64,000 nucleotides of DNA from an uncultured Chloroflexia bacterium. Its GTDB lineage: Bacteria; Chloroflexota; Limnocylindria; Limnocylindrales; CSP1-4. The stretch's first letter is position 1, and the number at the start of each line of letters is the position of its first letter. Of the stretch, positions 3,495-27,002 are shown one piece after another. The notes below the pieces were generated by a model. It was not told the origin of the DNA and did not search any database. It was given only the letters and a program-made list of their open reading frames with translations. Where the stretch lies: positions 448,001 through 512,000 of the forward strand of contig CAVYIM010000005.1 of NCBI GenBank assembly GCA_963768655.1, written 5' to 3'. The position numbers were made by a program, and so were the translations under genes.

Positions 3495-4828
3495 GGCCGC
3501 TCTCCTCCCGCCGGGTGGCCGCCGCGCGGCGCGAGCCAGGCGATGGCGCTGGCGGAGATCGAGCGCCCGCCGCCTTCGGAACCCTCCAGGTTTCCAGTCG
3601 AAGCCTTGACGTTGACCGCACCCGCGTCCATGCCCACGATCGCGGCGATCGCCGCGGCCATCTCCGGCAGCAACTCCGCCAGGCGCGGGCGCGAAGCGAC
3701 GATCGTCATGTCGATGTTCACCGGACGCCAGCCGGCGGCCCAAATCTCCTCTGCAACCCTGCCCAGCAGAACGCGGCTGTCGATCCCGACGGGCGTGCGA
3801 GAGTCGGCCGGGAAGAGCCGGCCCAGGTCGCCGAGTCCAGCCGCACCGAGCAACGCGTCGGCGACGGCGTGCAGGGCGACGTCCCCGTCCGAATGCCCGG
3901 CCAGTCTGGGCGCGCCGGCGATCGTCAGGCCACCCAGGACGAGAGGCTCGCCGGGGCCGAAGGGATGGCCATCGGTGCCGAGCCCGACGCGGCCGGACAG
4001 CCGGCGCCCGGCCGCAGTCGCCTCGCCGGCGAGCGCAGCCGAAGCCGGACGGCCTGGCACGAGGCCGCCGTCGAGCATGGCTCGGGCGCGTTCGAGGTCG
4101 ACTGGCACGGTGACCTTCAGATTCGTCGCTTCGCCGCTGATTGCGTGGACGGAGATTCTACAGGCCTCCAGCAGGGAAGCTTCATCGGTCCAGGTCTCGG
4201 GACCGTCGGGAGGGTATGCGGCGTAGGCGCGCTCGAGCAGGCTGCGTCGCACGCCCTGCGGGGTCTGCGCCGCCACGACACCCGTTCGATCGACGGTGGC
4301 GCCGACCCGATCGCCGTCCAGCCGCTTGAGCGTCTCGCTCACTGGCAGCACCGGGATCGCCGCCCCGTGGCTGGCGGTCGCCTCAGCCACCGCCACAACC
4401 AGCGCGGGGCTGACCAGCGGCCGGGCCGCGTCGTGGACGAGAATCACCGGGTCGCTGGCCTTCGCCGCTTCGCCGGGCCTGCCGCCGGGCGTCCTGCCCG
4501 CGCTGGCGGCGCCTCCCTCGGCCAGGGCCGCCACGCCCGCGGCGACGGACTCCTGGCGCCGCTTCCCGCCGGCAACCACGGCCACCACCGAGTCCGGCAG
4601 CCAATTCGCGGCGGCGATCTCGGGGATCCGCGCCGGGGACGTAACGACGACGATCCGCTCGGCACCGGCCGCGGCGAGCGCCTCGATCGACCAGCGCAGG
4701 ATGGTTCGGCCTTGCAGCTCCGCGTCGAGCTTGTCCAGGCCGCCCATTCGACGGCTGGCGCCTGCGGCTACGACGACCGCCTCGATCGGATCGGCGGCCC
4801 CGGCCGGCGGGCTCCTGCGAGCGCTCAC
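3491..4828 (-). CDS. ispDF: bifunctional IspD/IspF (MEP cytidylyltransferase / MEcPP synthase)
   Basis: AAGASRRMG, HDAARP, QTPQG and TDEA (IspD), followed by GLGTDGH, GHSDGDVALHAVADALLGA and NVKAST (IspF). Confidence 0.95.
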   Translation of the reverse strand: MSARRSPPAGAADPIEAVVVAAGASRRMGGLDKLDAELQGRTILRWSIEALAAAGAERIVVVTSPARIPEIAAANWLPDSVVAVVAGGKRRQESVAAGVAALAEGGAASAGRTPGGRPGEAAKASDPVILVHDAARPLVSPALVVAVAEATASHGAAIPVLPVSETLKRLDGDRVGATVDRTGVVAAQTPQGVRRSLLERAYAAYPPDGPETWTDEASLLEACRISVHAISGEATNLKVTVPVDLERARAMLDGGLVPGRPASAALAGEATAAGRRLSGRVGLGTDGHPFGPGEPLVLGGLTIAGAPRLAGHSDGDVALHAVADALLGAAGLGDLGRLFPADSRTPVGIDSRVLLGRVAEEIWAAGWRPVNIDMTIVASRPRLAELLPEMAAAIAAIVGMDAGAVNVKASTGNLEGSEGGGRSISASAIAWLAPRGGHPAGGERP

Positions 4829-9943: not shown

Positions 9944-10224
9944 CAACCTGAACGCCTGTTCTGTCTTTTCGCCGAGGGGCGACCGTGGGGCCATGCTAGC
10001 ACGCCCCGCCAGCGGTGTAACTCGCCCCAACCGGGGAGGGACTGGTGGCCCAGCGCGTGGGTCGGACCTTCGAGTGGCCACCCCCTCCCTGGGCTGTCCC
10101 GCGGTCAGGACGTGGTCGCCCGGGAGAGGCAGACGACCCGCCGGCGGGGCCGGCGGGTCGTCGGTTACGTCATGTCTGGCTGGTGTGAGCGGCAAGCGGC
10201 AGCGGATCTGCCGGCCGCCCGGAA

Positions 10225-13369: not shown

Positions 13370-13486
13370 TCCTGGCGACGACCTATTTTCCCGAAAGGCT
13401 GCCCTCTCAGTATCTTCGGCGCTGGAGAGCTTAACTACCGTGTTCGGGATGGGAACGGGTGTGGCCTCTCCGCTAGTGTCACCAGG
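13370..13486 (-). rRNA. rrf: 5S rRNA
   Basis: Reverse complement contains CACCCGTTCCCATCCCGAACACGG and paired termini CCTGGTG/CGCCAGGA. Confidence 0.96.
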
Positions 13487-13634
13487 ATTCCTTGCGTCTG
13501 GACGTGTTTCGGCAGGACGGGCGCGCCTGATTCGCGACCAGGCGCAGCGGCCGCCACCGCAGATCTTCAATCTCGCGTTATGTGCAGTTCATGCTTCTCG
13601 AACCAGCACCCGACCCTTGGTAAGGTGCTGTAGC

Positions 13635-16705
<3,071 letters not shown>

Positions 16706-17064
16706 ACCACAGCAACTCACCAAGAGGTCAGCTGCCGTGTGGCCCGGGATGCACCTTGCACATAACTCGGCGAAATTGAAGATCTTCAATCTGCCGAAAC
16801 ATATCCAGTTGTTAAGGTGGGGCCTTGCGGCCTCGGCCGGCCAGATGCCGGCTGCCCAGCGATCCGCTGGTCGGTGAGCTGTCCTGGCTCACGGATCAGA
16901 GGAGCGATGAAGGTCCAGACACCAAACGACGGCTCGATCGTTGCCGAGCCGCCGTTCTCACAGCGTTGCGTCTCGAGCTTGCTTGGGGCGTCTGGCCCCG
17001 ATATTCATTTTGATCGCTTGTGCGTCGGAGGCAGTTGACCGGTCCTCCAGCTGGCTCCGGGTTG

Positions 17065-17137
17065 TGGAGACGAGGAGACTCGAACTCCTGACCCTCTCCT
17101 TGCAAAGGAGATGCTCTGCCAACTGAGCTACGTCCCC
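17065..17137 (-). tRNA. tRNA-Ala(TGC), in the ITS, CCA not encoded
   Basis: GGGGACG...CGTCTCCA acceptor; anticodon arm TCTCC-TTTGCAA-GGAGA; T-loop TTCGAGT. Confidence 0.96.
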
Positions 17138-17151
17138 AGGCGGCAAGGGAG

Positions 17152-17228
17152 TGGTGGGCGACACTGGACTCGAACCAGTGACCTCTGCCTTATCAGGGCA
17201 GCGCTCTAACCAGCTGAGCTAGTCGCCC
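17152..17228 (-). tRNA. tRNA-Ile(GAT), in the ITS
   Basis: GGGCGAC...GTCGCCC-A-CCA; anticodon arm CTGCC-CTGATAA-GGCAG. Confidence 0.96.
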
Positions 17229-17470
17229 GCCTGGCGGTGCCGACGAGCGTCGACCGTCGGTCGCCACGCGGTGCACCTTAACCCTTGAAGAGTGACAGGA
17301 ATTCCGGCCCGAACCGGGCGGTATCGGTGCTTTGCCAGGTCGTCATCGACCTCGCCAGCCCGAGGGCCGGCGTCGCGCTCACCTGACCAGAGCGCAATGT
17401 CGATCGTGACGATCAACCTGGGAGCCATTTAGCGCCGAAGTCTCACCGATGACTCCGACTTGGAACTCCC

Positions 17471-18970
<1,500 letters not shown>

Positions 18971-19040
18971 AAACCTCAGCCTTGCAGCTGAATACGTCCG
19001 AGGGTTATTCCCGCTCGATCCTTACCGGATTTCCTGCCAC

Positions 19041-19730: not shown

Positions 19731-20348
19731 TCAGATCGCCCGCCGGCCCTGCAGCGCTCTGATCAGAGTCACTTCGTCCGCGTATTCGAGGTCGCCGCCG
19801 ACGGGCAATCCCCGCGCGATCCTGGTCACGCTGCCGACGAGCGGCTCCAGGCGTTCGGCCAGATACATCGCGGTGGCCTCCCCTTCGAGCGTGGGGTTCG
19901 TGGCGATCACGACCTCCTCGAAGCGCGCGCCGGCCCGGTTCGCCTCGTCGGCCCGCTCCAGCAACTGGCGGACCTTCAGTCGCTCGGGACCCACGCCATC
20001 GATCGGCGAGATGGCGCCGTGGAGCACGTGGTATAGACCCTTGAACTCGCCGGTCCGCTCCAGCGCCAGGACATCCAGCGGCTCCTCCACCACGCACAGC
20101 CGCGCGGCGTCCCGCCCCGGGTCGGAGCATATGGCGCAGACCGGCCGATCGCTGATGTTGAAGCAGCGCTCGCAGAAGACGACCTGCTCTCGCACGGCGA
20201 TGAGGGCGGCGGCAAGGGCGCGCGCTTCGGTGTCGGGCGCGCGCAGCAAGTGGTACGTCAGCCGCTGCGCCGTCTTGGGTCCGATGCCGGGCAGGCGGGC
20301 GAAGGAGTCGATGAGCCGCGCGACCGGCTCGATCAGAAGAGCGGGCAC
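19731..20348 (-). CDS. recR: recombination mediator RecR
   Basis: LPGIGPKTAQRL HhH, CERC...CAIC zinc finger, TOPRIM ATNPTLEGEATA, GLPVGGDLEYAD. Confidence 0.97.
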   Translation of the reverse strand: MPALLIEPVARLIDSFARLPGIGPKTAQRLTYHLLRAPDTEARALAAALIAVREQVVFCERCFNISDRPVCAICSDPGRDAARLCVVEEPLDVLALERTGEFKGLYHVLHGAISPIDGVGPERLKVRQLLERADEANRAGARFEEVVIATNPTLEGEATAMYLAERLEPLVGSVTRIARGLPVGGDLEYADEVTLIRALQGRRAI

Positions 20349-20354
20349 GGAAGG

Positions 20355-20660
20355 CTACATTCCCGGCAACCGGAGACCGCCGGTGACGGCCCCCATCTTC
20401 GCCTCGGCCAGCTCCCGGGCCGCCCGCTGCGCGTCGGTGACGGCGGCCACGATCAGGTCCTGGAGCATCTCGACGTCCGCGGGATCGACGGCCGACGGAT
20501 CGATGGCGATGCTCACGAGCTCCTGTTTGCCGTTGGCAACGGCCTTGACGACGCCGCCTCCGGCGGTCCCCTCGACGGTCGTCACGGCGAGCTCCTGCTG
20601 GACGCGCGCGAGGTCTTGCTGCATCTGCATTGCCATCCGCTGCAGGTTGGCCATGCTCAT
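20355..20660 (-). CDS. ybaB: YbaB/EbfC nucleoid-associated protein
   Basis: GTAGGGVVKA, DVEMLQDLIVAA; lies between dnaX and recR. Confidence 0.95.
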   Translation of the reverse strand: MSMANLQRMAMQMQQDLARVQQELAVTTVEGTAGGGVVKAVANGKQELVSIAIDPSAVDPADVEMLQDLIVAAVTDAQRAARELAEAKMGAVTGGLRLPGM

Positions 20661-20798: not shown

Positions 20799-22469
20799 TC
20801 AACCTACGTCGCCCACGTCGATCGCGTCGTCGCCGTAGATCCGTTTGAACTCGGTCAGCAGGCGGGAGCTGTCTGGGTCCTCGGGCAGCGGCGCGACCTC
20901 GACGTTCGCGGCTACGCAGCGCACGGACACGGGCATGCCTAGAACGCGGCTGACGCCGTCCTCCAGGATCGGACGGCGGCGATCGGCGACATCCTTGAAG
21001 AAGCTCTGGGTCTCCGGGAAGCCCAGCGTGACGACATTGCCGTCGACGCTGACGGGGCGGCAGGCGACGATGAGCGGCCGCGTCGGCGGGCTCTTGCTGA
21101 TGACCTCGACGATCTCGGCCCAGCGCTCCAGCAGCAGGGCGAGCGTCGGCCCGGACCGTGTGCCAGGGGCGGTCGAAGGCGCAGGCTCACTGCGAGCCGG
21201 AGGGACGGCCGGAGCCGAACTGGCGGCCGGGGCCGGATGCGCGGCCGGGGCCGACACATCGGCCGGAGCCGCTGGCGGGGGCGGGGCCGAAGACGGGCGC
21301 TCGGCCGAACGTTCTGGCGCGGCCGAAGGCACCCGTGCGGGGACCGGCGCCCGAACCGCGGGTCGCTCCAGGGGCGCGGGTGCGGGCGCATACGCGGGTG
21401 CGGCCGCGGAGATCGCGGCGGTTCCAACGGGCGCCAGCAGGGCCAGCTCCAGCTGGAGGCGCAAGCCGCCGGCACCGGGATGGGCCATGTCGATCGAGGC
21501 CAGGCGCCGGGCGGCTGCCGACAGAGCGCCGGGGCCGGCGGACGCAAGCCCCGAGGGCGTTCCGCGACCCAGCGACGAAAGCAGCGCCAGCCGCAACCCC
21601 TCGATGGCCTGCTCCGTGAAGGCGCGCAGGTCGCGGCCTCGCTCCTCCAGCCCGTCGAGTATCTCGATGCCGGCGACGGCCTCGCCGCCGACCAGCGCTT
21701 CGAGAAAAGCCTCGACCGTCTCCTCCTCGACCAGACCCAGTACGTCGCGAACGTGGTCCGCCGTCAGATCGCCGGCATCAGTGCCGAGGAGCTGGTCGAG
21801 CATCGACTCGGCGTCGCGCATGCCGCCGGCGGCCAGGCGGGCGATCAGGTCGATCGCCTCCGGCTCAGCCGTTCGGCCGTCGGCCGCCAGGATCGTCCGC
21901 AGCTTGCCGCCGATCTCGCCCACGGTCAGCCGCCGGAAGTCGAAGCGCTGAACCCGCGAAACGACGGCCGGCCGGATCTGGGTGCTGTCGGTGGTGCAGA
22001 AGACGAAGACGACGTGGTCGGGCGGCTCTTCGAGGGTCTTGAGCAGGACGTCCCAGCCCTCGCGGATCCGTTGGACTTCATCGACAATGAAGACCTTGAC
22101 GGTCAGGTCCGAAGGCGCGGTGTAGATCCGGGGCAGGAGCTCGCGCATGTCGTCAACGCGGTTGTTCGAGGCCGCGTCCATCTCGCTGACGTCGAGGGCG
22201 CGGCCGTCGCGAATGGCCACGCAGGCGGGGCACTCGTCGCACGGCTCGCCGTCACGAAGGTTCGAGCAGTTGAGCGCCTTCGCCAGGATTCGCGCCATCG
22301 AAGTCTTGCCGGTTCCGCGCGGACCGACGAACAGATAGGCATGGGCGGTCCGGCCCGAGCGCACGGCGTTGCGCAGCGTCTCGACGACCGCCTGCTGGCC
22401 GACGATCTGGCCGAACGTCTGGGCGCGCCAGCGGCGATAGATGGCCTGGTGCTGTGGTGTCGAGCTCAC
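20799..22469 (-). CDS. dnaX: DNA polymerase III subunit gamma/tau
   Basis: YRRWR, GPRGTGKTS Walker A, DAASN, LLKTLEEPP, GGMRDA; Pro/Ala-rich linker. Confidence 0.96.
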   Translation of the reverse strand: MSSTPQHQAIYRRWRAQTFGQIVGQQAVVETLRNAVRSGRTAHAYLFVGPRGTGKTSMARILAKALNCSNLRDGEPCDECPACVAIRDGRALDVSEMDAASNNRVDDMRELLPRIYTAPSDLTVKVFIVDEVQRIREGWDVLLKTLEEPPDHVVFVFCTTDSTQIRPAVVSRVQRFDFRRLTVGEIGGKLRTILAADGRTAEPEAIDLIARLAAGGMRDAESMLDQLLGTDAGDLTADHVRDVLGLVEEETVEAFLEALVGGEAVAGIEILDGLEERGRDLRAFTEQAIEGLRLALLSSLGRGTPSGLASAGPGALSAAARRLASIDMAHPGAGGLRLQLELALLAPVGTAAISAAAPAYAPAPAPLERPAVRAPVPARVPSAAPERSAERPSSAPPPPAAPADVSAPAAHPAPAASSAPAVPPARSEPAPSTAPGTRSGPTLALLLERWAEIVEVISKSPPTRPLIVACRPVSVDGNVVTLGFPETQSFFKDVADRRRPILEDGVSRVLGMPVSVRCVAANVEVAPLPEDPDSSRLLTEFKRIYGDDAIDVGDVG

Positions 22470-22540
22470 GCTGCTCCTGCCGGCACGGGCAAGACGAGGG
22501 GCGGCGCCGCCGGCGCTGTCCGCCGGCCGCCGGGTCGAGT

Positions 22541-22807
22541 GCCGTGCACCCTCCGTCGACCGACCGTTCCCGTGCCCACCAGTTGAGGCAGCTCAGACCA
22601 GGCCATTCCGCGGCACCCGACGATCATCGCTTAGTGCTGCTTCCTTCCGGACCTGACACGCTTCGCGAGCCGCCGCTGCGCGGGACCCGGCCCTCAACGT
22701 CACCACAAGCGGCGGCCTTCGAGGACGGGGACCTCGGGAGGGAATTCAGCCCTGCTGGAGCGGATTGCAGGTTACAGGGCACCGCTAGTTCCCCGCCTAG
22801 CACGGCC
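22541..22807 (-). ncRNA. ffs: signal recognition particle RNA, large bacterial type with Alu domain
   Basis: 5' GCCGTGCTAGGCGGGGAACTAGCGGTGCCCTGTAACCTGCAATCCGCT, helix 8 GTCAGGTCCGGAAGGAAGCAGC, 3' GGGTGCACGGC; immediately upstream of dnaX. Confidence 0.93.
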
Positions 22808-22812
22808 CGAGA

Positions 22813-22821
22813 ATCATAGCA
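22813..22821 (-). promoter_or_regulatory. extended -10 promoter of the SRP RNA
   Basis: TGcTATGAT about 5 nt upstream of the SRP RNA 5' end. Confidence 0.7.
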
Positions 22822-22892
22822 GCAGCCGGTGCCGGAGCCGAGCCTCGGCCTGGAGCGACGCGCGCGCGGCACCACGGCGACATGGAAACGAG

Positions 22893-22980
22893 TGGCGGAG
22901 AGGGAGGGATTTGAACCCTCGATGGGTTGCCCCATACCGCATTTCCAGTGCGGCGCCCTAGGCCACTAGGCGACCTCTCC
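22893..22980 (-). tRNA. tRNA-Ser(GGA)
   Basis: GGAGAGG...CCTCTCC-G-CCA, anticodon arm CCGCA-CTGGAAA-TGCGG, long variable arm. Confidence 0.96.
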
Positions 22981-23047
22981 GCGAAGACGGCCCGCGCGAC
23001 GGGCAGATCGCCGACCGGCCGGGCCGGCGACCCGGGAACCGAGAGAG

Positions 23048-23133
<86 letters not shown>

Positions 23134-23211
23134 GCGCGAGAGAATACCAGAGCCCGGCGAGGCGTCTGCCGATGGGAGCGGTGGACGGGGCCGATCGCTC
23201 CGCCGACCGGT

Positions 23212-23694
23212 TCAGCCGGCTGCCGTCCTGAGGCGCTCGGTAGCGCGCAGGCTTTCGACCGGGCCGGCCTTGACGAAGAGCTCTTCGGCCTCCTCGCAGC
23301 GGATGCCGCTGACGACCTTGAGCTTGCGCGACAGCCGCGTTTCCTGGGCGAGCTGAATCGCCCCGCCGGCCGCGCCGTCGACCAAGTTGGAGACGGCGAA
23401 GACCAGCGCCTCGACGTCGCAAGCCAGGAGAGCCCCGACGCACATCGGGCACGGCTCACGGGTGACGAAGATCGTGGCGTCGGCCAGGCGGACGCGGCCG
23501 AGCTTTCGAGCGGCCTCGCGCAGGGCGACGATAACCGCGTGGGCGGTGGGATCGTTGCATTCCTGGACCCTGTCGTGGGCCCGGGCCACCATGGCGTCGC
23601 TGACGACCGCGACGGCGCCGATCGGGGCCTTGCCCTGGTCGAGCGCGAGTTGGGCCTCGGCCAGAGCCTCTCCCATGAACAGCTCGTAGTTCAT
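23212..23694 (-). CDS. tadA: TadA-family tRNA adenosine deaminase homolog, predicted catalytically inactive (HAV instead of HAE)
   Basis: FMGEALAEA, PIGAV, DPTAHA(V), VTREPCPMCVGA; syntenic upstream of ffs-dnaX. Confidence 0.85.
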   Translation of the reverse strand: MNYELFMGEALAEAQLALDQGKAPIGAVAVVSDAMVARAHDRVQECNDPTAHAVIVALREAARKLGRVRLADATIFVTREPCPMCVGALLACDVEALVFAVSNLVDGAAGGAIQLAQETRLSRKLKVVSGIRCEEAEELFVKAGPVESLRATERLRTAAG

Positions 23695-23776
23695 GGGCGG
23701 ATCATACAGGCCCGCGGCGTCGAAAATGGGCTCGGGAAGCCCGTTACCGGCCGGCGGGCCGCGCACTGGATCGCAC

Positions 23777-24712
23777 TCAGTCCCGTGCCGGGTCGGGCGG
23801 GGCCGCCGGCTCCGACAGCTCCGAGTCCGGCGGGGCCGCCGGGGCCGACAGCTCGCGAATGGCCCGGGCCACGACCGACATGTCCTCGTCGCCGTGGCCG
23901 CCGTCGAGCAGCCGATCCTCCAGGGCCGCGGCCAGCATCGCCGTCGGAAGCATGACACCGGTTTCGCCGGCCATCTCGAGGGCGATCCCAAGGTCCTTGC
24001 GGTGCAGCGCCAGGCGGAAGCCGAGCGGGTACTCGTCATCGATCATCCGGCCGCTCCGGTTCGCCAGGACCCAGCTCGCGGCCGCGCCGCCCGACAGGGC
24101 TTCCACAAGGCGGCTCGGATCGAGCCCCGCCCGAATGCCCAGGACGATGCCCTCAGCCACGCCCAGATAGGCCCCGGCGATGATCACCTGGTTCACTGCC
24201 TTGGCGGCCTGGCCGTTGCCGAGCGGCCCGAGGTGAGTGACGGTCCGTCCGATCACCTCCAGGACGGGCCGAGCCCGCGCGACGTCGGCGTCGGAGCCGC
24301 CGGCGAAGATGGTCAGAGTGCCCAGTCGGGCGCCCTCCGAGCCGCCCGAGACGGGGGCGTCCACCATGCCGATGCCACGTTCCGCCAGGCGGCGGCCGAA
24401 CTGGCGGGTCGCGGCCGGAGCGATGGTCGAACAGTCGATGACGAGGGATCCGGCGGCGGCGCCCGTGGCCACTCCGCCCGGACCGAAGAGGACGGACGCG
24501 ACGTCCGGGCTGTCCGAGACGCAGACGACGACGACGTCCGAGGAGGCGGCCAGCTCCGCGGGACTCGCGGCCTCGCGCGCGCCGAGCTCGAGGAGTGCCG
24601 CGGCACGCCCGGGCGTTCTATTCCAGACGGTGAGCGGCGCACCCGCCCGAGCCAGGTTGGCGGCCATCGAGGCGCCCATGGTGCCGAGCCCCACGAACCC
24701 GATCCGTTCCAC
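23777..24712 (-). CDS. NAD(P)-dependent oxidoreductase, 3-hydroxyisobutyrate/tartronate semialdehyde reductase family
   Basis: IGFVGLGTMGASMA, WNRT, DAPVSGG, GQAAKAVNQ, KDL; GTG start with AAGGAG RBS. Confidence 0.92.
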   Translation of the reverse strand: MERIGFVGLGTMGASMAANLARAGAPLTVWNRTPGRAAALLELGAREAASPAELAASSDVVVVCVSDSPDVASVLFGPGGVATGAAAGSLVIDCSTIAPAATRQFGRRLAERGIGMVDAPVSGGSEGARLGTLTIFAGGSDADVARARPVLEVIGRTVTHLGPLGNGQAAKAVNQVIIAGAYLGVAEGIVLGIRAGLDPSRLVEALSGGAAASWVLANRSGRMIDDEYPLGFRLALHRKDLGIALEMAGETGVMLPTAMLAAALEDRLLDGGHGDEDMSVVARAIRELSAPAAPPDSELSEPAAPPDPARD

Positions 24713-24892
24713 GCTCGCTCCTTCGCCAGCTTGCATCTGCCGGCTCCATGCTAGCGGCCCGGCCGAGGATCCTGGCGGGGGCTTGGATGGGCGGTGATAC
24801 GATGCCGCCCCGAGGAAGCATCTGCGTCCATCCACAGTCGGATGTCGATGCTCGCGTCTCTTCGCCCCCGAGCCCATGATGGAGTCGAAATC

Positions 24893-25945
24893 TTGAATCC
24901 GCCTATCCGTTCGGGGCTCGTCGGGAGAATGGCGAGCGCCCTGCTCGTATCGGCGCTCGTGGCCGCGTGCGGCGCGGCGACTCTCTCGCCGTCTCCGAGC
25001 CAGACTCGACAGAGCGCGAGTCCGGCGGAGGCAGTCGCGTCTGCCGGGTCGACGCCGACGCCCTCGCCCACAGGCACGCCGTCCCCCACGGCGTCGTCGG
25101 CGCCGTCCATGACGCCCGCGACGCCCTCGCCCACTCCCTCGCCCAAACCCTCGCCGACCCCATTCTCGGTCGTCGCCGCCACGAGCTGCGACCCCAGCGT
25201 GGTCCCGGGCTCCGAGTACGCGCCGCCACCGCCGGCGCCGTCCCCGAATTCGAAGCCGGTCACGCTGCACGTCCCCATCCTCGAGTACCACCGTATCGTT
25301 CCGCCGGCCCGAGCCGGGAGATCGGCCCCGGGGCTGACGATGACGCCCCAGGTCTTCGACGCCCAGATGGCCGCGCTGGCCAAGGCGGGGTGGCACACCA
25401 TCACCCTCGCCGCCCTCGCCGACGATCTGGCGGCCAACGTGAGCCCGCCCTCGCATACCTTCGTAGTCACGATCGACGATGGCTGGTGGGACAGCTTTGA
25501 CTACGCCTTCAACATCCTCCTCAGATACGGGTTCGTGGCCACCTTCTTCGTGATCGCCGACCGGATCGGCCAGCCCCTGTTCCTGGCACCGGACGAGATC
25601 CAGATCCTGGCCGCGGCGGGCAACGACATCGGCGACCACACCGTCCACCACGACGCGTTGACCGCCGCGCAGCCGAAGGCGCTGACCTACGAGATCGATT
25701 CCGGGGCGGCGACGATCGCCGCCATCACCGGACGCTGGCCCGAGACGCTGGCCTATCCACTGGGCAAGGCCGACTCGCGGGTGCTGGCCGCCGTCGCCGC
25801 CTGCAAGTCGCTGCGTCTGGCGGTTGTCGAGGGCAGCGGCGCTCGCGAGACCTGGGCCACTCAATTCCACGTGTCGCGCATTCAGGTCGGCCCGCAGCGG
25901 CTGCCGGCAGATCTGCTCGCCGAGGTTCAACGTGTCGGCCGCTGA
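24893..25945 (+). CDS. polysaccharide deacetylase (NodB homology) lipoprotein with Ser/Pro/Thr linker
   Basis: Lipobox-like LVAAC, PILEYH, TIDDG, HTVHH and AYPLG motifs; start uncertain (TTG 24893 or ATG 24929). Confidence 0.85.
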   Translation: MNPPIRSGLVGRMASALLVSALVAACGAATLSPSPSQTRQSASPAEAVASAGSTPTPSPTGTPSPTASSAPSMTPATPSPTPSPKPSPTPFSVVAATSCDPSVVPGSEYAPPPPAPSPNSKPVTLHVPILEYHRIVPPARAGRSAPGLTMTPQVFDAQMAALAKAGWHTITLAALADDLAANVSPPSHTFVVTIDDGWWDSFDYAFNILLRYGFVATFFVIADRIGQPLFLAPDEIQILAAAGNDIGDHTVHHDALTAAQPKALTYEIDSGAATIAAITGRWPETLAYPLGKADSRVLAAVAACKSLRLAVVEGSGARETWATQFHVSRIQVGPQRLPADLLAEVQRVGR

Positions 25946-26822
25946 TCGGCGCCGGCGGAGCGCGACACGGACGCGACTGCTGTCGCTCCTGGCGCTGGCG
26001 GCCGTGCTCGCCTTCACGCGTCCGGGCAGGCGCGCCGTCCGGCGGCTGGCGCTGCTGATCGATTCTCATGTCGAGGGCGCCGCGGAGCCGGATGCACGCG
26101 GCTATGCGCGCTTCATCGCGCCGGTGTTTCGCCGGCTGTATGAGCGTGTGACCGATGACGTGGCCTCCGAGCTGGAGGGCCGAACTGGCGTCGACGGCGG
26201 CCGCGGCGGCGGCGACAACGGCGCCGGCGGCAGAGGCGGCCGAGGCAGCGACGGCGGCCGCGGCGGCGGCAACGGCCGCGATCTCACGATCCTGGACGTG
26301 GGCTGCGGACCGGGCGACCTGGCCGCAATGCTGTCCGAACGACTGCCGGAGGCGCGCGTGTGCGGCGTCGACCTCGCGCCGAGTATGGTCGAGCTGGCGA
26401 GGCAGAAGGCGACGGACGACGGCCGGCTCGGCTTCGAAGGCGGAGACGTGGCCGACCTGCCATTCGAATCCGGATCGTTCGACCTGGTCGTCTCGACGCT
26501 CAGCCTGCACCACTGGCCGGACCCTGGGGCCGGTTTCGCCGAGATCGCGCGGGTGCTTCGACCCGGTGGCGTCGCTCTCATCTACGACCTCCGCCTGGTG
26601 ACACTGGAGGCGGAAAGGCTGACCGAGGTTGCGCGTCGGGCCGGGCTGCCGGCCTCGGTGCTTCGGCGTGAGCGCCTCCGCGGCGGCATCCTCGCCGGCC
26701 TGTTCGTCCGTTTCCGCGTCGATCGCCCGGTCGGCGGAGGATCGACCGACTTCTCGCCCGCTGCGGGGGCAGCGGGCCATGCTAGAATTCCGGCCGCTGT
26801 GACTCCTGGAGAGGTCGCATAG
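25932..26822 (+). CDS. class I SAM-dependent methyltransferase with Gly/Arg-rich insertion
   Basis: ILDVGCGPG, GVDLAPSM, DLPFESGSFDLVVSTLSLHHW, RVLRPGG; stop codon lies inside the tRNA-Ser gene; start uncertain. Confidence 0.85.
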   Translation: MSAADRRRRSATRTRLLSLLALAAVLAFTRPGRRAVRRLALLIDSHVEGAAEPDARGYARFIAPVFRRLYERVTDDVASELEGRTGVDGGRGGGDNGAGGRGGRGSDGGRGGGNGRDLTILDVGCGPGDLAAMLSERLPEARVCGVDLAPSMVELARQKATDDGRLGFEGGDVADLPFESGSFDLVVSTLSLHHWPDPGAGFAEIARVLRPGGVALIYDLRLVTLEAERLTEVARRAGLPASVLRRERLRGGILAGLFVRFRVDRPVGGGSTDFSPAAGAAGHARIPAAVTPGEVA

Positions 26823-26900
26823 TCGGTCTAGTGCAGCGGTTTGCTAAACCGCCAGGTGGGGTAACCTGCCTCGAGGGTTCGAATCCCTCCCTCTCCGCCA
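26808..26900 (+). tRNA. tRNA-Ser(GCT)
   Basis: GGAGAGG...CCTCTCC-G-CCA, anticodon arm GCGGT-TTGCTAA-ACCGC, long variable arm; TGcTAGAAT extended -10 upstream. Confidence 0.96.
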
Positions 26901-26926
26901 GTCCTCGCAATGAAGCACAGCCGCGC

Positions 26927-27002
26927 GCGCCCGTAGCTCAGTGGATAGAGCGTCAGGTTGCGGACCTGAAGGCCGTGGGTTCGAGTCCCGCCGGGCGCGC
27001 CA
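26927..27002 (+). tRNA. tRNA-Arg(GCG)
   Basis: 76-nt cloverleaf GCGCCCG...CGGGCGC-G-CCA; anticodon arm TCAGG-TTGCGGA-CCTGA (anticodon 26960-26962); Arg-type D-loop AGTGGATA. Confidence 0.94.

What the first reader, a model, noticed from the sequence alone, without database searches (positions are those of the whole stretch)
23212..27002. Catalytically dead TadA (HAE to HAV) retained next to a tRNA-Arg with an editing-independent GCG anticodon
Seen: the tadA ORF reads DPTAHAVIVAL (codons CAC GCG GTT) where TadA has DPTAHAE. The zinc ligands (H, PCxxC) are intact, but other typical residues have drifted (EVP to KAP, HN to HD, LNH to LSR). About 3 kb away, the tRNA-Arg after tRNA-Ser(GCT) has anticodon GCG (26960-26962), not ACG. 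Established: bacterial TadA converts A34 to inosine in tRNA-Arg(ACG) using the HAE glutamate, and the non-catalytic eukaryotic ADAT3/Tad3 subunit has Val at this position. The tadA-SRP RNA-dnaX-ybaB-recR order matches Bacillus, which supports orthology. Inference: this lineage decodes CGY codons with G34 and lost the editing activity, yet kept an intact ORF with a plausible promoter. The protein may therefore be a pseudoenzyme with a new role (tRNA binding or chaperoning, or the inactive half of a heterodimer), convergent with ADAT3.
Basis: partly seen in the sequence, partly recalled or inferred. Interest (0 to 1): 0.85.

Follow-up and report, generated by a model that had tools for sequence, protein, structure and literature searches.

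The report
Dead TadA kept after inosine loss
A soil and peat bacterial lineage (Limnocylindria) no longer needs the enzyme that edits its arginine tRNA, yet has long kept a catalytically disabled copy of it under selection, so the protein probably does something else.

Summary
The ORF at window 23212-23694 (-) is the positional orthologue of tadA. It reads H-A-V where TadA has H-A-E, and its zinc ligands are intact. The tRNA-Arg at 26927-27002 has anticodon GCG. The genome (88.6% complete) has 51 tRNAs: none has A34, there is no Arg-ACG, and Arg-UCG and Arg-CCG are present. It has no second TadA.

The state is lineage-wide, not an error. In a class-level sample, the tadA orthologue lacks Glu (V/I/L) in 40 of 40 loci from families f1 and f4. 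These families have the Arg-GCG pattern (39/44, 46/50) and never the ACG pattern (0/94). Sister family f3 has H-A-E (30/30 loci, with f5 and one f4 contig) and ACG (39/49). The streamlined family f2 has GCG and no tadA.

The Glu-less proteins form one clan (SH-aLRT 100). They evolve under purifying selection (genus median dN/dS 0.12) and have a conserved upstream -10-like box. They keep the zinc site, the TadA fold and the predicted dimer interface. They have lost most residues that contact the anticodon loop.

Replacement of ACG by GCG with TadA loss is already published for other bacteria. Retention of a selected, Glu-less TadA orthologue was not found in print. Its function is unknown. Canonical tRNA binding and a heterodimer role are disfavoured.

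The parts
23212..23694 (-). tadA-like CDS (160 codons plus stop), the positional orthologue of tadA with H52-A53-V54 in place of H-A-E. Zinc ligands H52, C82 and C85 are intact.
   Evidence: sequence, translation. NF008113 101.9 bits, below the cut-off of 150. PF14437 90.5 bits. Foldseek best matches are TadA structures (TM 0.85-0.90). H52, C82 and C85 are invariant in 53 orthologues.
23533..23535 (-). GTT codon for V54, the position of the catalytic proton-shuttle Glu of TadA.
   Evidence: read from the ruler; the same position is GTG 28, GTC 28, GTT 1, ATC 2, CTG 2 in 61 orthologues.
23701..23706 (-). TATGAT, a -10-like hexamer that ends 6 nt before the ATG. This suggests a dedicated promoter and a leaderless or near-leaderless mRNA (inferred).
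   Evidence: TAT[GC]AT stands at this place in 21 of 21 genus loci, within otherwise unconserved upstream sequence (read by eye from the printed sequences). The consensus scan found no full sigma-70 site.
26927..27002 (+). tRNA-Arg(GCG), anticodon at 26960-26962. It reads CGC and CGU without inosine.
   Evidence: (Rfam tRNA 71.5 bits). GCG in 30 of 30 genus loci; class-wide pattern tally.
26808..26900 (+). tRNA-Ser(GCT), immediately upstream of tRNA-Arg(GCG). The pair is conserved in relatives.
   Evidence: Ser(GCT) lies beside Arg(GCG) in 28 of 30 loci..
23048..23133 (-). tRNA-Ser(CGA), directly downstream of the tadA-like gene (synteny marker).
   Evidence: Ser(CGA) and Ser(GGA) lie beside the gene in 39 of 40 f1/f4 loci.
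22893..22980 (-). tRNA-Ser(GGA) (synteny marker).
22542..22805 (-). Large (Bacillus-type) SRP RNA (synteny marker).
   Evidence: RF01854, 174.3 bits; the same arrangement stands downstream of the H-A-E tadA in f3 genomes.
20799..22469 (-). dnaX (synteny marker).
   Evidence: DNA_pol3_delta2 119.9 bits, DnaX_C.
20355..20660 (-). ybaB/ebfC (synteny marker).
   Evidence: YbaB_DNA_bd 112.1 bits.
19731..20348 (-). recR (synteny marker).
   Evidence: RecR_HhH, RecR_ZnF, Toprim_4.
23777..24700 (-). 3-hydroxyisobutyrate/6-phosphogluconate-dehydrogenase-like gene upstream (start approximate). It is an inherited neighbour, also present where the tadA-like gene is gone.
   Evidence: NAD_binding_2 171.3 bits, NAD_binding_11 108.4 bits; the f2 locus L229 keeps this gene, with a PNPOx-family gene in the tadA slot.

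Best explanation
The ORF is the orthologue of tadA in a Limnocylindria (Chloroflexota) genome, and it can no longer deaminate A34. The proton-shuttle Glu is a hydrophobic residue, and the genome has no A34 tRNA to edit.

CGC and CGU are read by tRNA-Arg(GCG), CGA by tRNA-Arg(UCG) and CGG by tRNA-Arg(CCG). This suits a 69% G+C genome in which CGC is 44% of Arg codons.

After the switch the ex-enzyme was neither deleted nor left to decay in families f1 and f4. It passed through a burst of change and lost most anticodon-loop contact residues. It has since been held under purifying selection as a small, acidic protein, predicted to bind zinc and to form a homodimer, with its own conserved promoter element.

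The most likely reading is a pseudoenzyme whose retained fold, zinc pocket and dimer serve a non-catalytic binding or scaffolding role that is not the canonical recognition of the tRNA-Arg anticodon loop.

Shown: the sequence state, its distribution, its coupling to the anticodon, selection, the fold and orthology. Inferred: loss of catalysis (from the established role of the Glu in CDA-fold deaminases), zinc binding, dimerisation, and the existence and nature of the new role.
For: **Sequence state.**
- H-A-V with an intact PCxxC.
- 51 tRNAs in the genome, none with A34. The Arg tRNAs are TCT, GCG, CCT, CCG and TCG.
- The only other CDA-fold genes in the genome are a dCMP-deaminase/ComEB-like gene and a cytidine deaminase.

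**Distribution.**
- Genus: 21 of 24 relatives have the orthologue. All are H-A-V except the two copies in G008, which are H-A-I.
- 20 of 20 loci from 12 other f1 genera are H-A-V (19) or H-A-I (1). 20 of 20 f4 loci are H-A-V (18) or H-A-L (2). 30 of 30 loci of f3, f5 and the G110 contig are H-A-E.
- ACG pattern: f1 0/44, f2 0/6, f3 39/49, f4 0/50, f5 0/1.
- GCG pattern: f1 39/44, f2 6/6, f3 3/49, f4 46/50, f5 0/1.
- Two of the three f3 genomes with GCG (G070 at 97% and G111 at 86% complete) have no TadA. Their best CDA hits score 35 and 42 bits.
- In a phylum sample of 121 genomes, high scores to the H-A-V profile (216-249 bits) occur only in f1 and f4. All other matches score 136 bits or less.

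**Orthology.**
- The order tadA, two tRNA-Ser, SRP RNA holds here. In f3 genomes with H-A-E tadA, the two tRNAs follow in 4 of 4 loci and the SRP RNA is in view in 3 of 4.

**Single origin.**
- 61 H-A-V rows form one clan with SH-aLRT 100. The separating branch is 0.47 + 0.58 changes per column (quick method).

**Selection.**
- Genus median dN/dS is 0.121 (range 0.031-0.301; 202 of 210 pairs usable). f4 gives 0.239 and other f1 0.321, against 0.325 for the H-A-E clade.
- Nine non-overlapping genus pairs give pN/pS 0.02-0.19, with Fisher p at most 2e-7.
- 26 columns are invariant in 53 sequences, including H52, C82 and C85.
- 79 of 80 further loci are uninterrupted.
- Synonymous codons vary at V54.

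**Expression signal.**
- TAT[GC]AT lies 6 nt before the ATG in 21 of 21 genus loci. TAGACT lies within 70 nt upstream in 20 of 20 f4 loci (by eye).

**Fold and dimer.**
- AlphaFold2 model with pLDDT 89.9. The best PDB matches are TadA structures.
- Homodimer prediction scores 0.84, against 0.00 for the best of 3 controls. The runs agree in at least 93% of contacts and the partner pLDDT is at least 87. The tool's calibration: 20 of 30 proteins solved as pairs and 1 of 23 solved as single chains reached the mark. Because TadA homodimers are solved, the pass may reflect likeness only.

**Loss of tRNA contacts.**
- V23, R43, E44, W68, R93, K105, N122, H123, R133, F143 and F144 are each present in at least 93% of 30 H-A-E sequences and unconserved in 44 H-A-V sequences. 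N41 is D in 34 of 44.
- These map to the published contacts S. aureus Arg94, Lys106 and Asn123 and E. coli Phe149 (PMC3711424). The mapping was done by hand from ungapped alignments.
- Median net charge is -6 against -1.
Against: - There are no biochemical data: catalysis, zinc content, oligomer state and ligands are all inferred.
- The gene is dispensable in some relatives. It is absent from f2 (0/16, 0/6), where a PNPOx-family gene occupies the slot.
- One genus member (G014, a 69%-complete assembly) shows an internal deletion of residues 70-127.
- Conservation of the zinc pocket would also fit residual or altered catalysis.
- dS is near saturation beyond the genus, so the deeper dN/dS values are rough.
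- The tree used the quick method.
- All genomes are metagenome assemblies. G000 is 88.6% complete, so a second tadA in the missing part cannot be excluded from this genome alone.
- Some f1/f4 relatives hold other H-A-E CDA-fold paralogues. All 8 examined score 70-93.5 bits on the TadA model, below the cut-off of 150. A partner among them is not excluded in those genomes.
- No candidate function emerges from the gene neighbourhood.
Confidence: 0.7

Rival explanations
1. The protein still binds tRNA. It may bind tRNA-Arg(GCG), reading or shielding G34, or another tRNA, and act as a non-catalytic tRNA chaperone or regulator.
For: - The fold, zinc pocket and dimer interface that build the TadA RNA site are conserved.
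- R69, the equivalent of S. aureus Arg70, is kept in 35 of 44 sequences.
- The pocket Asn is replaced by Asp in 34 of 44. This could accept hydrogen bonds from a guanine (speculation).
- Inactive deaminases have been proposed elsewhere as RNA-binding regulators (PMC3239186, passage).
Against: - R93, K105, N122/H123 and F143/F144, which map to published anticodon-loop contacts, are unconserved.
- Median net charge is -6 and median pI is about 5.1, against -1 and 6.6 in the H-A-E clade.
- D41 is not invariant.
- ADAT3, the known parallel, also lost its anticodon-loop pockets (PMC8216470).
Confidence: 0.15
2. It is a relic without a function of its own, decaying slowly or kept for a reason unrelated to its protein product (for example, its DNA carries signals for the downstream tRNA-Ser and SRP RNA genes).
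For: - The gene is gone in f2, and tadA is gone in the f3 genomes G070 and G111.
- G014 has an internal deletion.
- The gene lies directly upstream of two tRNA genes.
Against: - pN/pS is 0.02-0.19 while dS is around 0.2-1 in nine independent pairs. The constraint is therefore on the protein, not the DNA.
- Open frames are intact in 79 of 80 further loci and in the 61 sequences used for the alignments.
- 26 columns are invariant across two families.
- The state has persisted across two families placed in different orders by the tool's kinship labels.
Confidence: 0.08
3. It is still an enzyme. It would have a different substrate or chemistry that does not need the Glu, for example with D41 or a zinc-bound water acting alone.
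For: - H52, C82, C85 and the pocket loops DPTAHA, TxEPCxMC and G107-G110 are invariant or nearly so.
- N41 has become Asp in most members.
Against: - The Glu position tolerates V, I, L (and P-V in G068), so only a hydrophobic residue is selected there.
- D41 is replaced by N, E, H, Q, A or R in 10 of 44 sequences.
- The Glu is required in the characterised tRNA deaminases: a yeast Tad2p mutant with this Glu changed to Ala loses activity, as cited in PMC8216470. That this holds for CDA-fold deaminases in general is recalled.
- The genome has no A34 tRNA.
Confidence: 0.05
4. It is the inactive half of a heterodimer with an active CDA-fold partner, as ADAT3 is for ADAT2.
For: - It has the same Glu-to-Val change as ADAT3 (PMC8216470).
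- Some relatives carry extra H-A-E paralogues.
Against: - G000 has no TadA-type partner, only a dCMP-deaminase-like gene and a cytidine deaminase.
- The extra paralogues are sporadic, and most genus genomes have one match only.
- The homodimer prediction passes.
Confidence: 0.02

Closest known systems
Bacterial TadA (tRNA adenosine-34 deaminase; E. coli TadA, S. aureus TadA 2B3J, B. subtilis TadA 7CPH)
   Same: - Same fold: Foldseek TM 0.85-0.90 and 31-39% identity.
- Same genomic slot next to the SRP RNA, dnaX, ybaB and recR.
- Same zinc ligands and EPCxMC motif.
- Predicted homodimer through the same helices.
   Different: - The catalytic Glu is Val, Ile or Leu.
- The strand-2 Asn is mostly Asp.
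- The basic residue after strand 4 and the Phe pair of the C-terminal helix are lost.
- It scores below the NCBIfam TadA cut-off (101.9 against 150).
- The genome has no tRNA-Arg(ACG) substrate.
Eukaryotic ADAT3/Tad3, the inactive subunit of the ADAT2/ADAT3 tRNA deaminase
   Same: - Glu replaced by Val in the H-x-E motif.
- Zinc ligands kept.
- Anticodon-loop recognition determinants lost (PMC8216470, passages read; Iyer et al. PMC3239186).
   Different: - ADAT3 works only as the partner of active ADAT2. It has an extra N-terminal domain, and its C-terminus caps the zinc site.
- Here the protein is 160 aa with no extra domain. G000 has no active partner.
- The clan arises inside bacterial TadA, so the likeness is convergent.
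- Zinc capping could not be tested.
Bacterial lineages that gave up I34 (Mollicutes; Thermotogae, Spirochaetes and others)
   Same: [quoted passage not shown]
   Different: - In those accounts tadA is lost, or in some Mollicutes weakened with the H-A-E kept.
- Here a Glu-less orthologue is retained under purifying selection across two families.
- Surveys that score TadA by homology would count such a gene as 'present'. The supplementary tables of those papers could not be seen.

Membership tests
TadA (tRNA adenosine(34) deaminase) | H-x-E motif with the catalytic proton-shuttle Glu | tested here: not met
   H52-A53-V54. V, I or L in 40 of 40 f1/f4 loci.
TadA (tRNA adenosine(34) deaminase) | Zinc ligands His plus PCxxC (EPCxMC motif) | tested here: met
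   H52, E80, P81, C82, M84 and C85 are invariant in 53 sequences.
TadA (tRNA adenosine(34) deaminase) | Asn in strand 2 (Iyer et al. 2011, PMC3239186, table passage) | tested here: not met
   Position 41 is D in 34 of 44 H-A-V sequences and N in 3. It is N in 30 of 30 H-A-E sequences.
TadA (tRNA adenosine(34) deaminase) | Basic residue after strand 4 (the S. aureus Lys106 equivalent) | tested here: not met
   Position 105 is V, R, E, D or Q in the H-A-V clade (R in 12 of 44). It is K in 29 of 30 H-A-E sequences.
TadA (tRNA adenosine(34) deaminase) | Two helices after strand 5, with a conserved Glu and Phe in the first | tested here: inconclusive
   The model has helices 133-143 and 146-159, the second at low confidence. 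E135 is kept in 40 of 44. The Phe pair at 143/144 of the H-A-E clade is lost.
TadA (tRNA adenosine(34) deaminase) | Score over the curated equivalog cut-off (NF008113, 150 bits) | tested here: not met
   101.9 bits. Only 5 of 151 class genomes score over the cut-off, none of them in f1.
TadA (tRNA adenosine(34) deaminase) | Substrate tRNA-Arg(ACG) encoded in the genome | tested here: not met
   No ACG or other A34 anticodon among the 51 tRNAs. The ACG pattern is found in 0 of 94 f1 and f4 genomes.
TadA (tRNA adenosine(34) deaminase) | Descent from tadA (orthology by position and tree) | tested here: met
   The synteny is shared with the H-A-E tadA of f3. The nearest structures and sequences are TadA.
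TadA (tRNA adenosine(34) deaminase) | A34-to-I34 deaminase activity | not testable with these tools
   This needs an enzyme assay or tRNA sequencing.
ADAT3/Tad3 | Glu of H-x-E replaced (Val), zinc ligands kept | tested here: met
   The ADAT3 facts are from PMC8216470.
ADAT3/Tad3 | Obligate partner of an active ADAT2/Tad2-type subunit | tested here: not met
   No H-A-E TadA-type gene in G000. The homodimer prediction passes.
ADAT3/Tad3 | Additional N-terminal domain | tested here: not met
   The protein is 160 aa and starts at the conserved MNYELFM.
ADAT3/Tad3 | C-terminus caps the zinc pocket | not testable with these tools
Bacteria without I34 decoding | No tRNA-Arg(ACG), with tRNA-Arg(GCG) and/or tRNA-Arg(UCG) present | tested here: met
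Bacteria without I34 decoding | tadA gene absent | tested here: not met
   A Glu-less orthologue is retained in f1 (39/44 genomes with a match) and f4 (49/50). It is absent in f2 (0/6 and 0/16).

The most novel reading that the evidence does not exclude
A free-living bacterial class has turned its essential tRNA-editing enzyme into a stand-alone pseudoenzyme. This would be a bacterial, homodimeric counterpart of ADAT3, exapted for a new zinc-pocket-dependent binding role (RNA, nucleotide or protein) and kept for a time span covering at least two families in different orders. If so, homology-based surveys overstate where inosine-34 exists in bacteria, and TadA-derived pseudoenzymes may hide in other I34-less phyla.
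Probability: 0.4. Interest if true: 0.8.

Novelty: new variant of a known kind. Interest (0 to 1): 0.62.

Why it matters
- **Annotation.** TadA is treated as a near-universal, essential bacterial enzyme, and its presence is used to infer inosine-34 decoding. Here JGI annotates the gene as 'tRNA(adenine34) deaminase', although it lacks the catalytic residue and its substrate. Annotation, and surveys based on homology, would therefore mis-score this class.
- **Pseudoenzyme evolution.** This is a natural experiment on what happens to an essential modification enzyme once its substrate is rewired. Relatives show three outcomes: an active enzyme (f3), clean loss (f2, G070, G111) and long-term retention of a dead form (f1, f4).
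- **Parallel with ADAT3.** The Glu-to-Val change together with loss of anticodon-loop contacts recurs here independently of ADAT3, which suggests a repeatable route to deaminase pseudoenzymes.
- **Practical use.** The clan offers TadA scaffolds with a silenced active site, and a testable case for finding non-catalytic roles of the CDA fold.

Tried and rejected
- BLAST-type searches for tRNA-Arg in family f3 with strict thresholds found matches in only 3 of 22 and 7 of 22 genomes. They were replaced by IUPAC patterns.
- The sigma-70 and terminator consensus scan of 22400-25000 found nothing. The promoter statement rests on conservation seen by eye.
- The look-up of sequencing runs gave only small shares (0.15 or less), so no habitat or strain claim is made.
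- Read laying on four RNA libraries (contigs only) placed pieces at 85% identity or more over the ORF. Examples are 23245-23592 in X17 and 23423-23679 in X16. DNA carry-over and relatives cannot be excluded, so this is no more than a weak hint of transcription. The uncovered bins at 24749-24922 say nothing.
- The listing of cluster members showed that the three non-Glu TadA-like representatives outside the clan (P0144 H-A-V, P0204 H-P-I, P0211 H-A-P) are singletons on single contigs with no organism. They may be errors.
- The apparent truncation of the gene in G068 is an assembly gap of N, not a pseudogene. Its motif reads H-P-V.
- I tested whether the GCG tRNA gene is the positional orthologue of the f3 ACG gene. 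In 6 of 6 f3 loci the ACG gene is not beside tRNA-Ser(GCT), and the anticodon stems differ. The origin of the GCG gene stays open.
- The N-terminal MNYELFM looked 'gained' in the column comparison. That is partly an artefact of my start-codon choice for the H-A-E sequences, and E. coli and B. subtilis TadA have a similar E-x-x-M. I make no claim on it.
- The gene neighbourhood offered no conserved partner. The distance and content between the gene and tRNA-Arg vary.
- A second structure job, the viral fold library and the protein atlas were not used.

Full report
**1. What is in the window**

The minus strand of 23212-23694 encodes a 160-aa protein, P0001.
- It matches the Pfam deaminase families MafB19-deam (90.5 bits) and dCMP_cyt_deam_1 (79.2 bits).
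- Its best NCBIfam match is the TadA equivalog NF008113 at 101.9 bits, below the curated cut-off of 150.
- It reads DPTAHAVIVAL with codons CAC GCG GTT. V54 is at 23533-23535.
- PCPMC is intact. K-A-P, H-D and L-S-R stand where TadA has E-V-P, H-N and L-N-H.

ARAGORN finds tRNA-Ser(GCT) at 26808-26900 and tRNA-Arg(GCG) at 26927-27002, with the anticodon at 26960-26962.

Downstream of the ORF on the same strand lie tRNA-Ser(CGA), tRNA-Ser(GGA), a large SRP RNA (174 bits), dnaX, ybaB and recR.

**2. The whole genome**

The window is G000:C5:448001-512000 of a 3.37-Mb, 9-contig assembly with 68-69% G+C. The assembly is 88.6% complete with 0.6% contamination.
- ARAGORN finds 51 tRNAs, none with A at position 34.
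- The Arg tRNAs are TCT, GCG, CCT, CCG and TCG.
- The only other CDA-fold genes are a dCMP-deaminase/ComEB-like gene (H-A-E) and a tetrameric-type cytidine deaminase. No second TadA was found.
- In 867 long ORFs with high GC3, CGC is 44.1% of Arg codons, CGG 29.6%, CGA 10.7% and CGT 7.0%. A G34 tRNA therefore reads the commonest Arg codon by a Watson-Crick pair.

**3. Taxon**

The 80 closest loci in the species-representative collection carry record titles such as Chloroflexi or Chloroflexota bacterium, Candidatus Limnocylindrales and Candidatus Limnocylindria. A few carry other Chloroflexota labels. NCBI places Limnocylindrales in the class Limnocylindria, phylum Chloroflexota. Equating the tool's coded 'class' with Limnocylindria is my inference.

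**4. Distribution of the two traits**

In the genus:
- 21 of 24 relatives have the orthologue, at 75-96% identity.
- All read H-A-V except the two copies in G008, which read H-A-I.
- G014, a 69%-complete assembly, shows an internal deletion of residues 70-127.
- The orthologous tRNA is GCG in 30 of 30 loci examined, and 28 of them have tRNA-Ser(GCT) beside it.

In a class-level sample of 151 genomes I fetched 70 tadA loci:

| Group | Loci | Motif |
|---|---|---|
| f3, f5 and one contig of the f4 genome G110 | 30 of 30 | H-A-E |
| 12 other f1 genera | 20 of 20 | H-A-V (19), H-A-I (1) |
| f4 | 20 of 20 | H-A-V (18), H-A-L (2) |

Two pattern searches for the tRNA-Arg D-arm plus anticodon loop gave these tallies:

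| Pattern | f1 | f2 | f3 | f4 | f5 |
|---|---|---|---|---|---|
| ACG | 0/44 | 0/6 | 39/49 | 0/50 | 0/1 |
| GCG | 39/44 | 6/6 | 3/49 | 46/50 | 0/1 |

- Family f2 (genomes of about 1.1 Mb, same order as f1) has no TadA-family match at all: 0/16 and 0/6. In its syntenic slot, between the dehydrogenase-like gene and tRNA-Ser(CGA), sits a PNPOx-family gene.
- Of the three f3 genomes with the GCG pattern, G070 and G111 have no TadA. Their best CDA hits score 35 and 42 bits. Each carries a tRNA-Arg(GCG)-tRNA-Arg(UCG) tandem.
- The third, G158 (76% complete), has both patterns and an H-A-E tadA. It may be mixed.
- Of the five f1 genomes without a TadA-family match, four (G023, G161, G164, G178) also lack the GCG pattern. 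This suggests an unassembled region.
- In a phylum sample of 121 genomes, high scores to the H-A-V profile (216-249 bits) occur only in f1 (G000, G071, G074) and f4 (9 of 9). Ten other genomes score 93-136 bits and 98 have no match at 1e-25. The partial match in G068 is cut by an assembly gap.
- The 80 loci read H-A-V (78) or H-A-I (2). Their flanks hold 54 tRNA-Arg(GCG), one tRNA-Arg(CCT) and no ACG. These loci come from the same collection as the G handles, so they partly repeat genomes already counted.
- Four H-A-E loci (L063, L065, L082, L087), and seven genomes in the tallies, are flagged as unpublished by the tool. Without them the H-A-E count is 26 of 26.

**5. Orthology and origin**

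In f3 genomes the H-A-E tadA also lies upstream of two tRNAs (4 of 4 loci). The SRP RNA is in view in 3 of the 4. In 39 of 40 f1/f4 loci the Glu-less gene is followed by tRNA-Ser(CGA) and tRNA-Ser(GGA). These are positional orthologues.

A tree was built of 157 rows: 44 H-A-V and 30 H-A-E sequences from loci, plus 83 near-full-length representatives from a search of 1.84 billion proteins.
- All 61 Limnocylindria-type H-A-V rows fall in one clan with SH-aLRT 100. The separating branch is 0.47 + 0.58 changes per column. f4 and f1 separate inside the clan (quick method, midpoint root only).
- One H-A-V and one H-P-I representative sit among the H-A-E rows. They, and one H-A-P protein, are singletons of unknown origin.

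The origin of the GCG tRNA gene is not resolved. It is 82-84% identical to the genome's own UCG and CCG tRNAs and to an f3 ACG tRNA. Its anticodon stem differs from the ACG genes, and the f3 ACG genes are not beside tRNA-Ser(GCT).

**6. Selection and expression signals**

Nei-Gojobori estimates:

| Group | Median dN/dS | Notes |
|---|---|---|
| Genus g1 (H-A-V) | 0.121 | range 0.031-0.301; 202 of 210 pairs with dS 0.05-1.5 |
| f4 (H-A-V) | 0.239 | |
| Other f1 genera (H-A-V) | 0.321 | |
| H-A-E clade | 0.325 | |

- Beyond the genus dS is near saturation, so those values are rough.
- Nine non-overlapping genus pairs give pN/pS 0.02-0.19, with Fisher p at most 2e-7.
- Twenty-six columns are invariant in 53 sequences.
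- V54 is encoded by three Val codons across the clan.
- 79 of 80 further loci are uninterrupted. In L177 the match runs through one stop, whose place I did not examine.
- Upstream, TAT[GC]AT ends 6 nt before the ATG in 21 of 21 genus loci. Similar hexamers stand there in 18 of 20 other f1 loci. TAGACT occurs within 70 nt in 20 of 20 f4 loci. The rest of the upstream sequence is not conserved (read by eye). This fits a dedicated promoter and, in f1, a leaderless mRNA (inferred).
- RNA-library contigs of four wetland metatranscriptomes cover the ORF at 85% identity or more. This cannot be told from DNA carry-over.

**7. What has changed in the protein**

The AlphaFold2 model is confident (pLDDT 89.9). 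Its best PDB matches are bacterial TadA structures: 7CPH, 2B3J, 1WWR and 1Z3A, with TM 0.84-0.90.

A homodimer prediction scores 0.84, against 0.00 for the best of 3 controls.
- The runs agree in at least 93% of contacts, and the partner pLDDT is at least 87.
- In the tool's calibration, 20 of 30 proteins solved as pairs and 1 of 23 solved as single chains reached the mark.
- TadA dimers are solved, so the pass may only show likeness.

I compared 44 H-A-V sequences (4 of the 21 genus sequences plus 40 others) with 30 H-A-E sequences.
- Kept: the zinc ligands, DPTAHA, TxEPCxMCxGA, G107, G130 and E135.
- No longer conserved in the H-A-V clan: V23, R43, E44, W68, R93, K105, A106, S111, N122, H123, P125, R133, E137, L140, F143 and F144. 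Each is present in at least 90% of the H-A-E sequences.
- N41 is Asp in 34 of 44.
- By hand-mapping through ungapped alignments, R93, K105 and N122 correspond to S. aureus Arg94, Lys106 and Asn123, and F143/F144 to the E. coli Phe149 region. All are described as anticodon-loop contacts (PMC3711424, passages).
- The H-A-V proteins are more acidic: median net charge -6 and pI about 5.1, against -1 and 6.6.

**8. Interpretation**

The lineage reads CGY with G34 and has no use for A34 deamination. Its tadA orthologue lacks the residue that this enzyme class needs for catalysis. In f2, and in two f3 genomes, the gene disappeared. In f1 and f4 it was remodelled and then conserved.

I read it as a pseudoenzyme with a non-catalytic role that uses the retained fold, zinc pocket and dimer (confidence 0.7).
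- The canonical tRNA-binding mode is unlikely to survive.
- A heterodimer role lacks a partner in G000. Some relatives carry other H-A-E CDA-fold paralogues: 8 examined, at 70-93.5 bits on the TadA model. One, in G157, is TadA-like, lies in a 61% G+C stretch and is followed in the same stop-free frame by a sequence I take to be a superoxide dismutase, named by eye and not family-tested.
- Residual catalysis and slow decay are minor rivals.

**9. Comparison with what is known**

- Replacement of tRNA-Arg(ACG) by GCG together with loss of tadA is described for Mollicutes (PMC3711424; abstract and passages).
- A review states that all sequenced Thermotogae and Spirochaetes carry GCG instead of ACG (PMC8007984; passage).
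- A survey of 1093 bacteria reports repeated losses of the inosine modification, with loss of the target tRNA and gain of the non-target tRNA (PMC6063277; passages).
- The tRNA side is therefore a new instance of a known kind.
- Eight full-text searches found no account of a retained Glu-less TadA orthologue, nor of this trait in Limnocylindria or Chloroflexota.
- Public annotation calls these proteins 'tRNA(adenine34) deaminase' (JGI) or 'nucleoside deaminase' (NCBI).

**10. Verdict**

I rate it a new variant of a known kind, with interest 0.62. It is a clean, clade-wide natural case of an essential tRNA-editing enzyme turned into a conserved pseudoenzyme. Its function is still to be found.

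Noticed in passing
G000:C9:169957-170032 (outside the window); whole genome: The genome has a tRNA-Ile(UAU) and only two CAU tRNAs. The TilS N-terminal family TIGR02432 finds only 22.7 bits, against a cut-off of 93.6. The lineage may therefore also lack lysidine and read AUA (3.9% of Ile codons) with U34. That would be a second wobble-modification system given up.
   Followed up: partly
L060 (G110:C60) and L118 (G110:C56): One f4 genome holds both an H-A-E tadA (184.5 bits, on a 3.4-kb contig that groups with non-Limnocylindria representatives in the tree) and an H-A-V one. Both lie next to tRNA-Ser(CGA), and their G+C is 0.70 and 0.69. Contamination, transfer or a transitional state is unresolved.
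   Followed up: partly
L252 (G157:C3:150000-152300): A second, TadA-like H-A-E reading frame (93.5 bits) lies in an f4 genome, in a stretch of 61% G+C. The same stop-free frame continues into a sequence that I take to be a superoxide dismutase (named by eye, not family-tested). It looks foreign to the class's 68-70% G+C.
   Followed up: partly
L231 (G070:C26) 9998-10167 and L232 (G111:C21) 4126-4284: Two f3 genomes without any TadA carry a tandem of tRNA-Arg(GCG) and tRNA-Arg(UCG). The anticodon arm of the GCG gene resembles that of f1/f4 rather than the f3 ACG genes. This hints that the GCG gene spread or is older than the family split.
   Followed up: partly
window 23695-23764 and the upstream regions of L061-L089: In f3 the H-A-E tadA seems to abut or overlap the end of an upstream gene: a conserved '...TACCTCGGTGTCTAG' lies a few tens of bases before the start in many loci. 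In the H-A-V clan the gene has its own conserved -10-like box. The operon structure seems to have changed along with the loss of function (by eye).
   Followed up: no
window 13370-18971 (-): A complete rRNA operon (16S, tRNA-Ile(GAT), tRNA-Ala(TGC), 23S, 5S) lies about 4 kb downstream of recR on the same strand.
   Followed up: no
L027/L029 (G014:C198): In one genus member the gene matches residues 1-69 and 128-159 only, so the PCxxC region is missing. This is either a real deletion or an assembly fault in a 69%-complete assembly.
   Followed up: no
window 26927-27002 compared with f3 loci L133-L139: The GCG tRNAs have U32 and G37 (loop TTGCGGA). The ACG tRNAs of f3 have C32 and mostly A37 (CTACGAA). 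The anticodon-loop context changed together with position 34.
   Followed up: no
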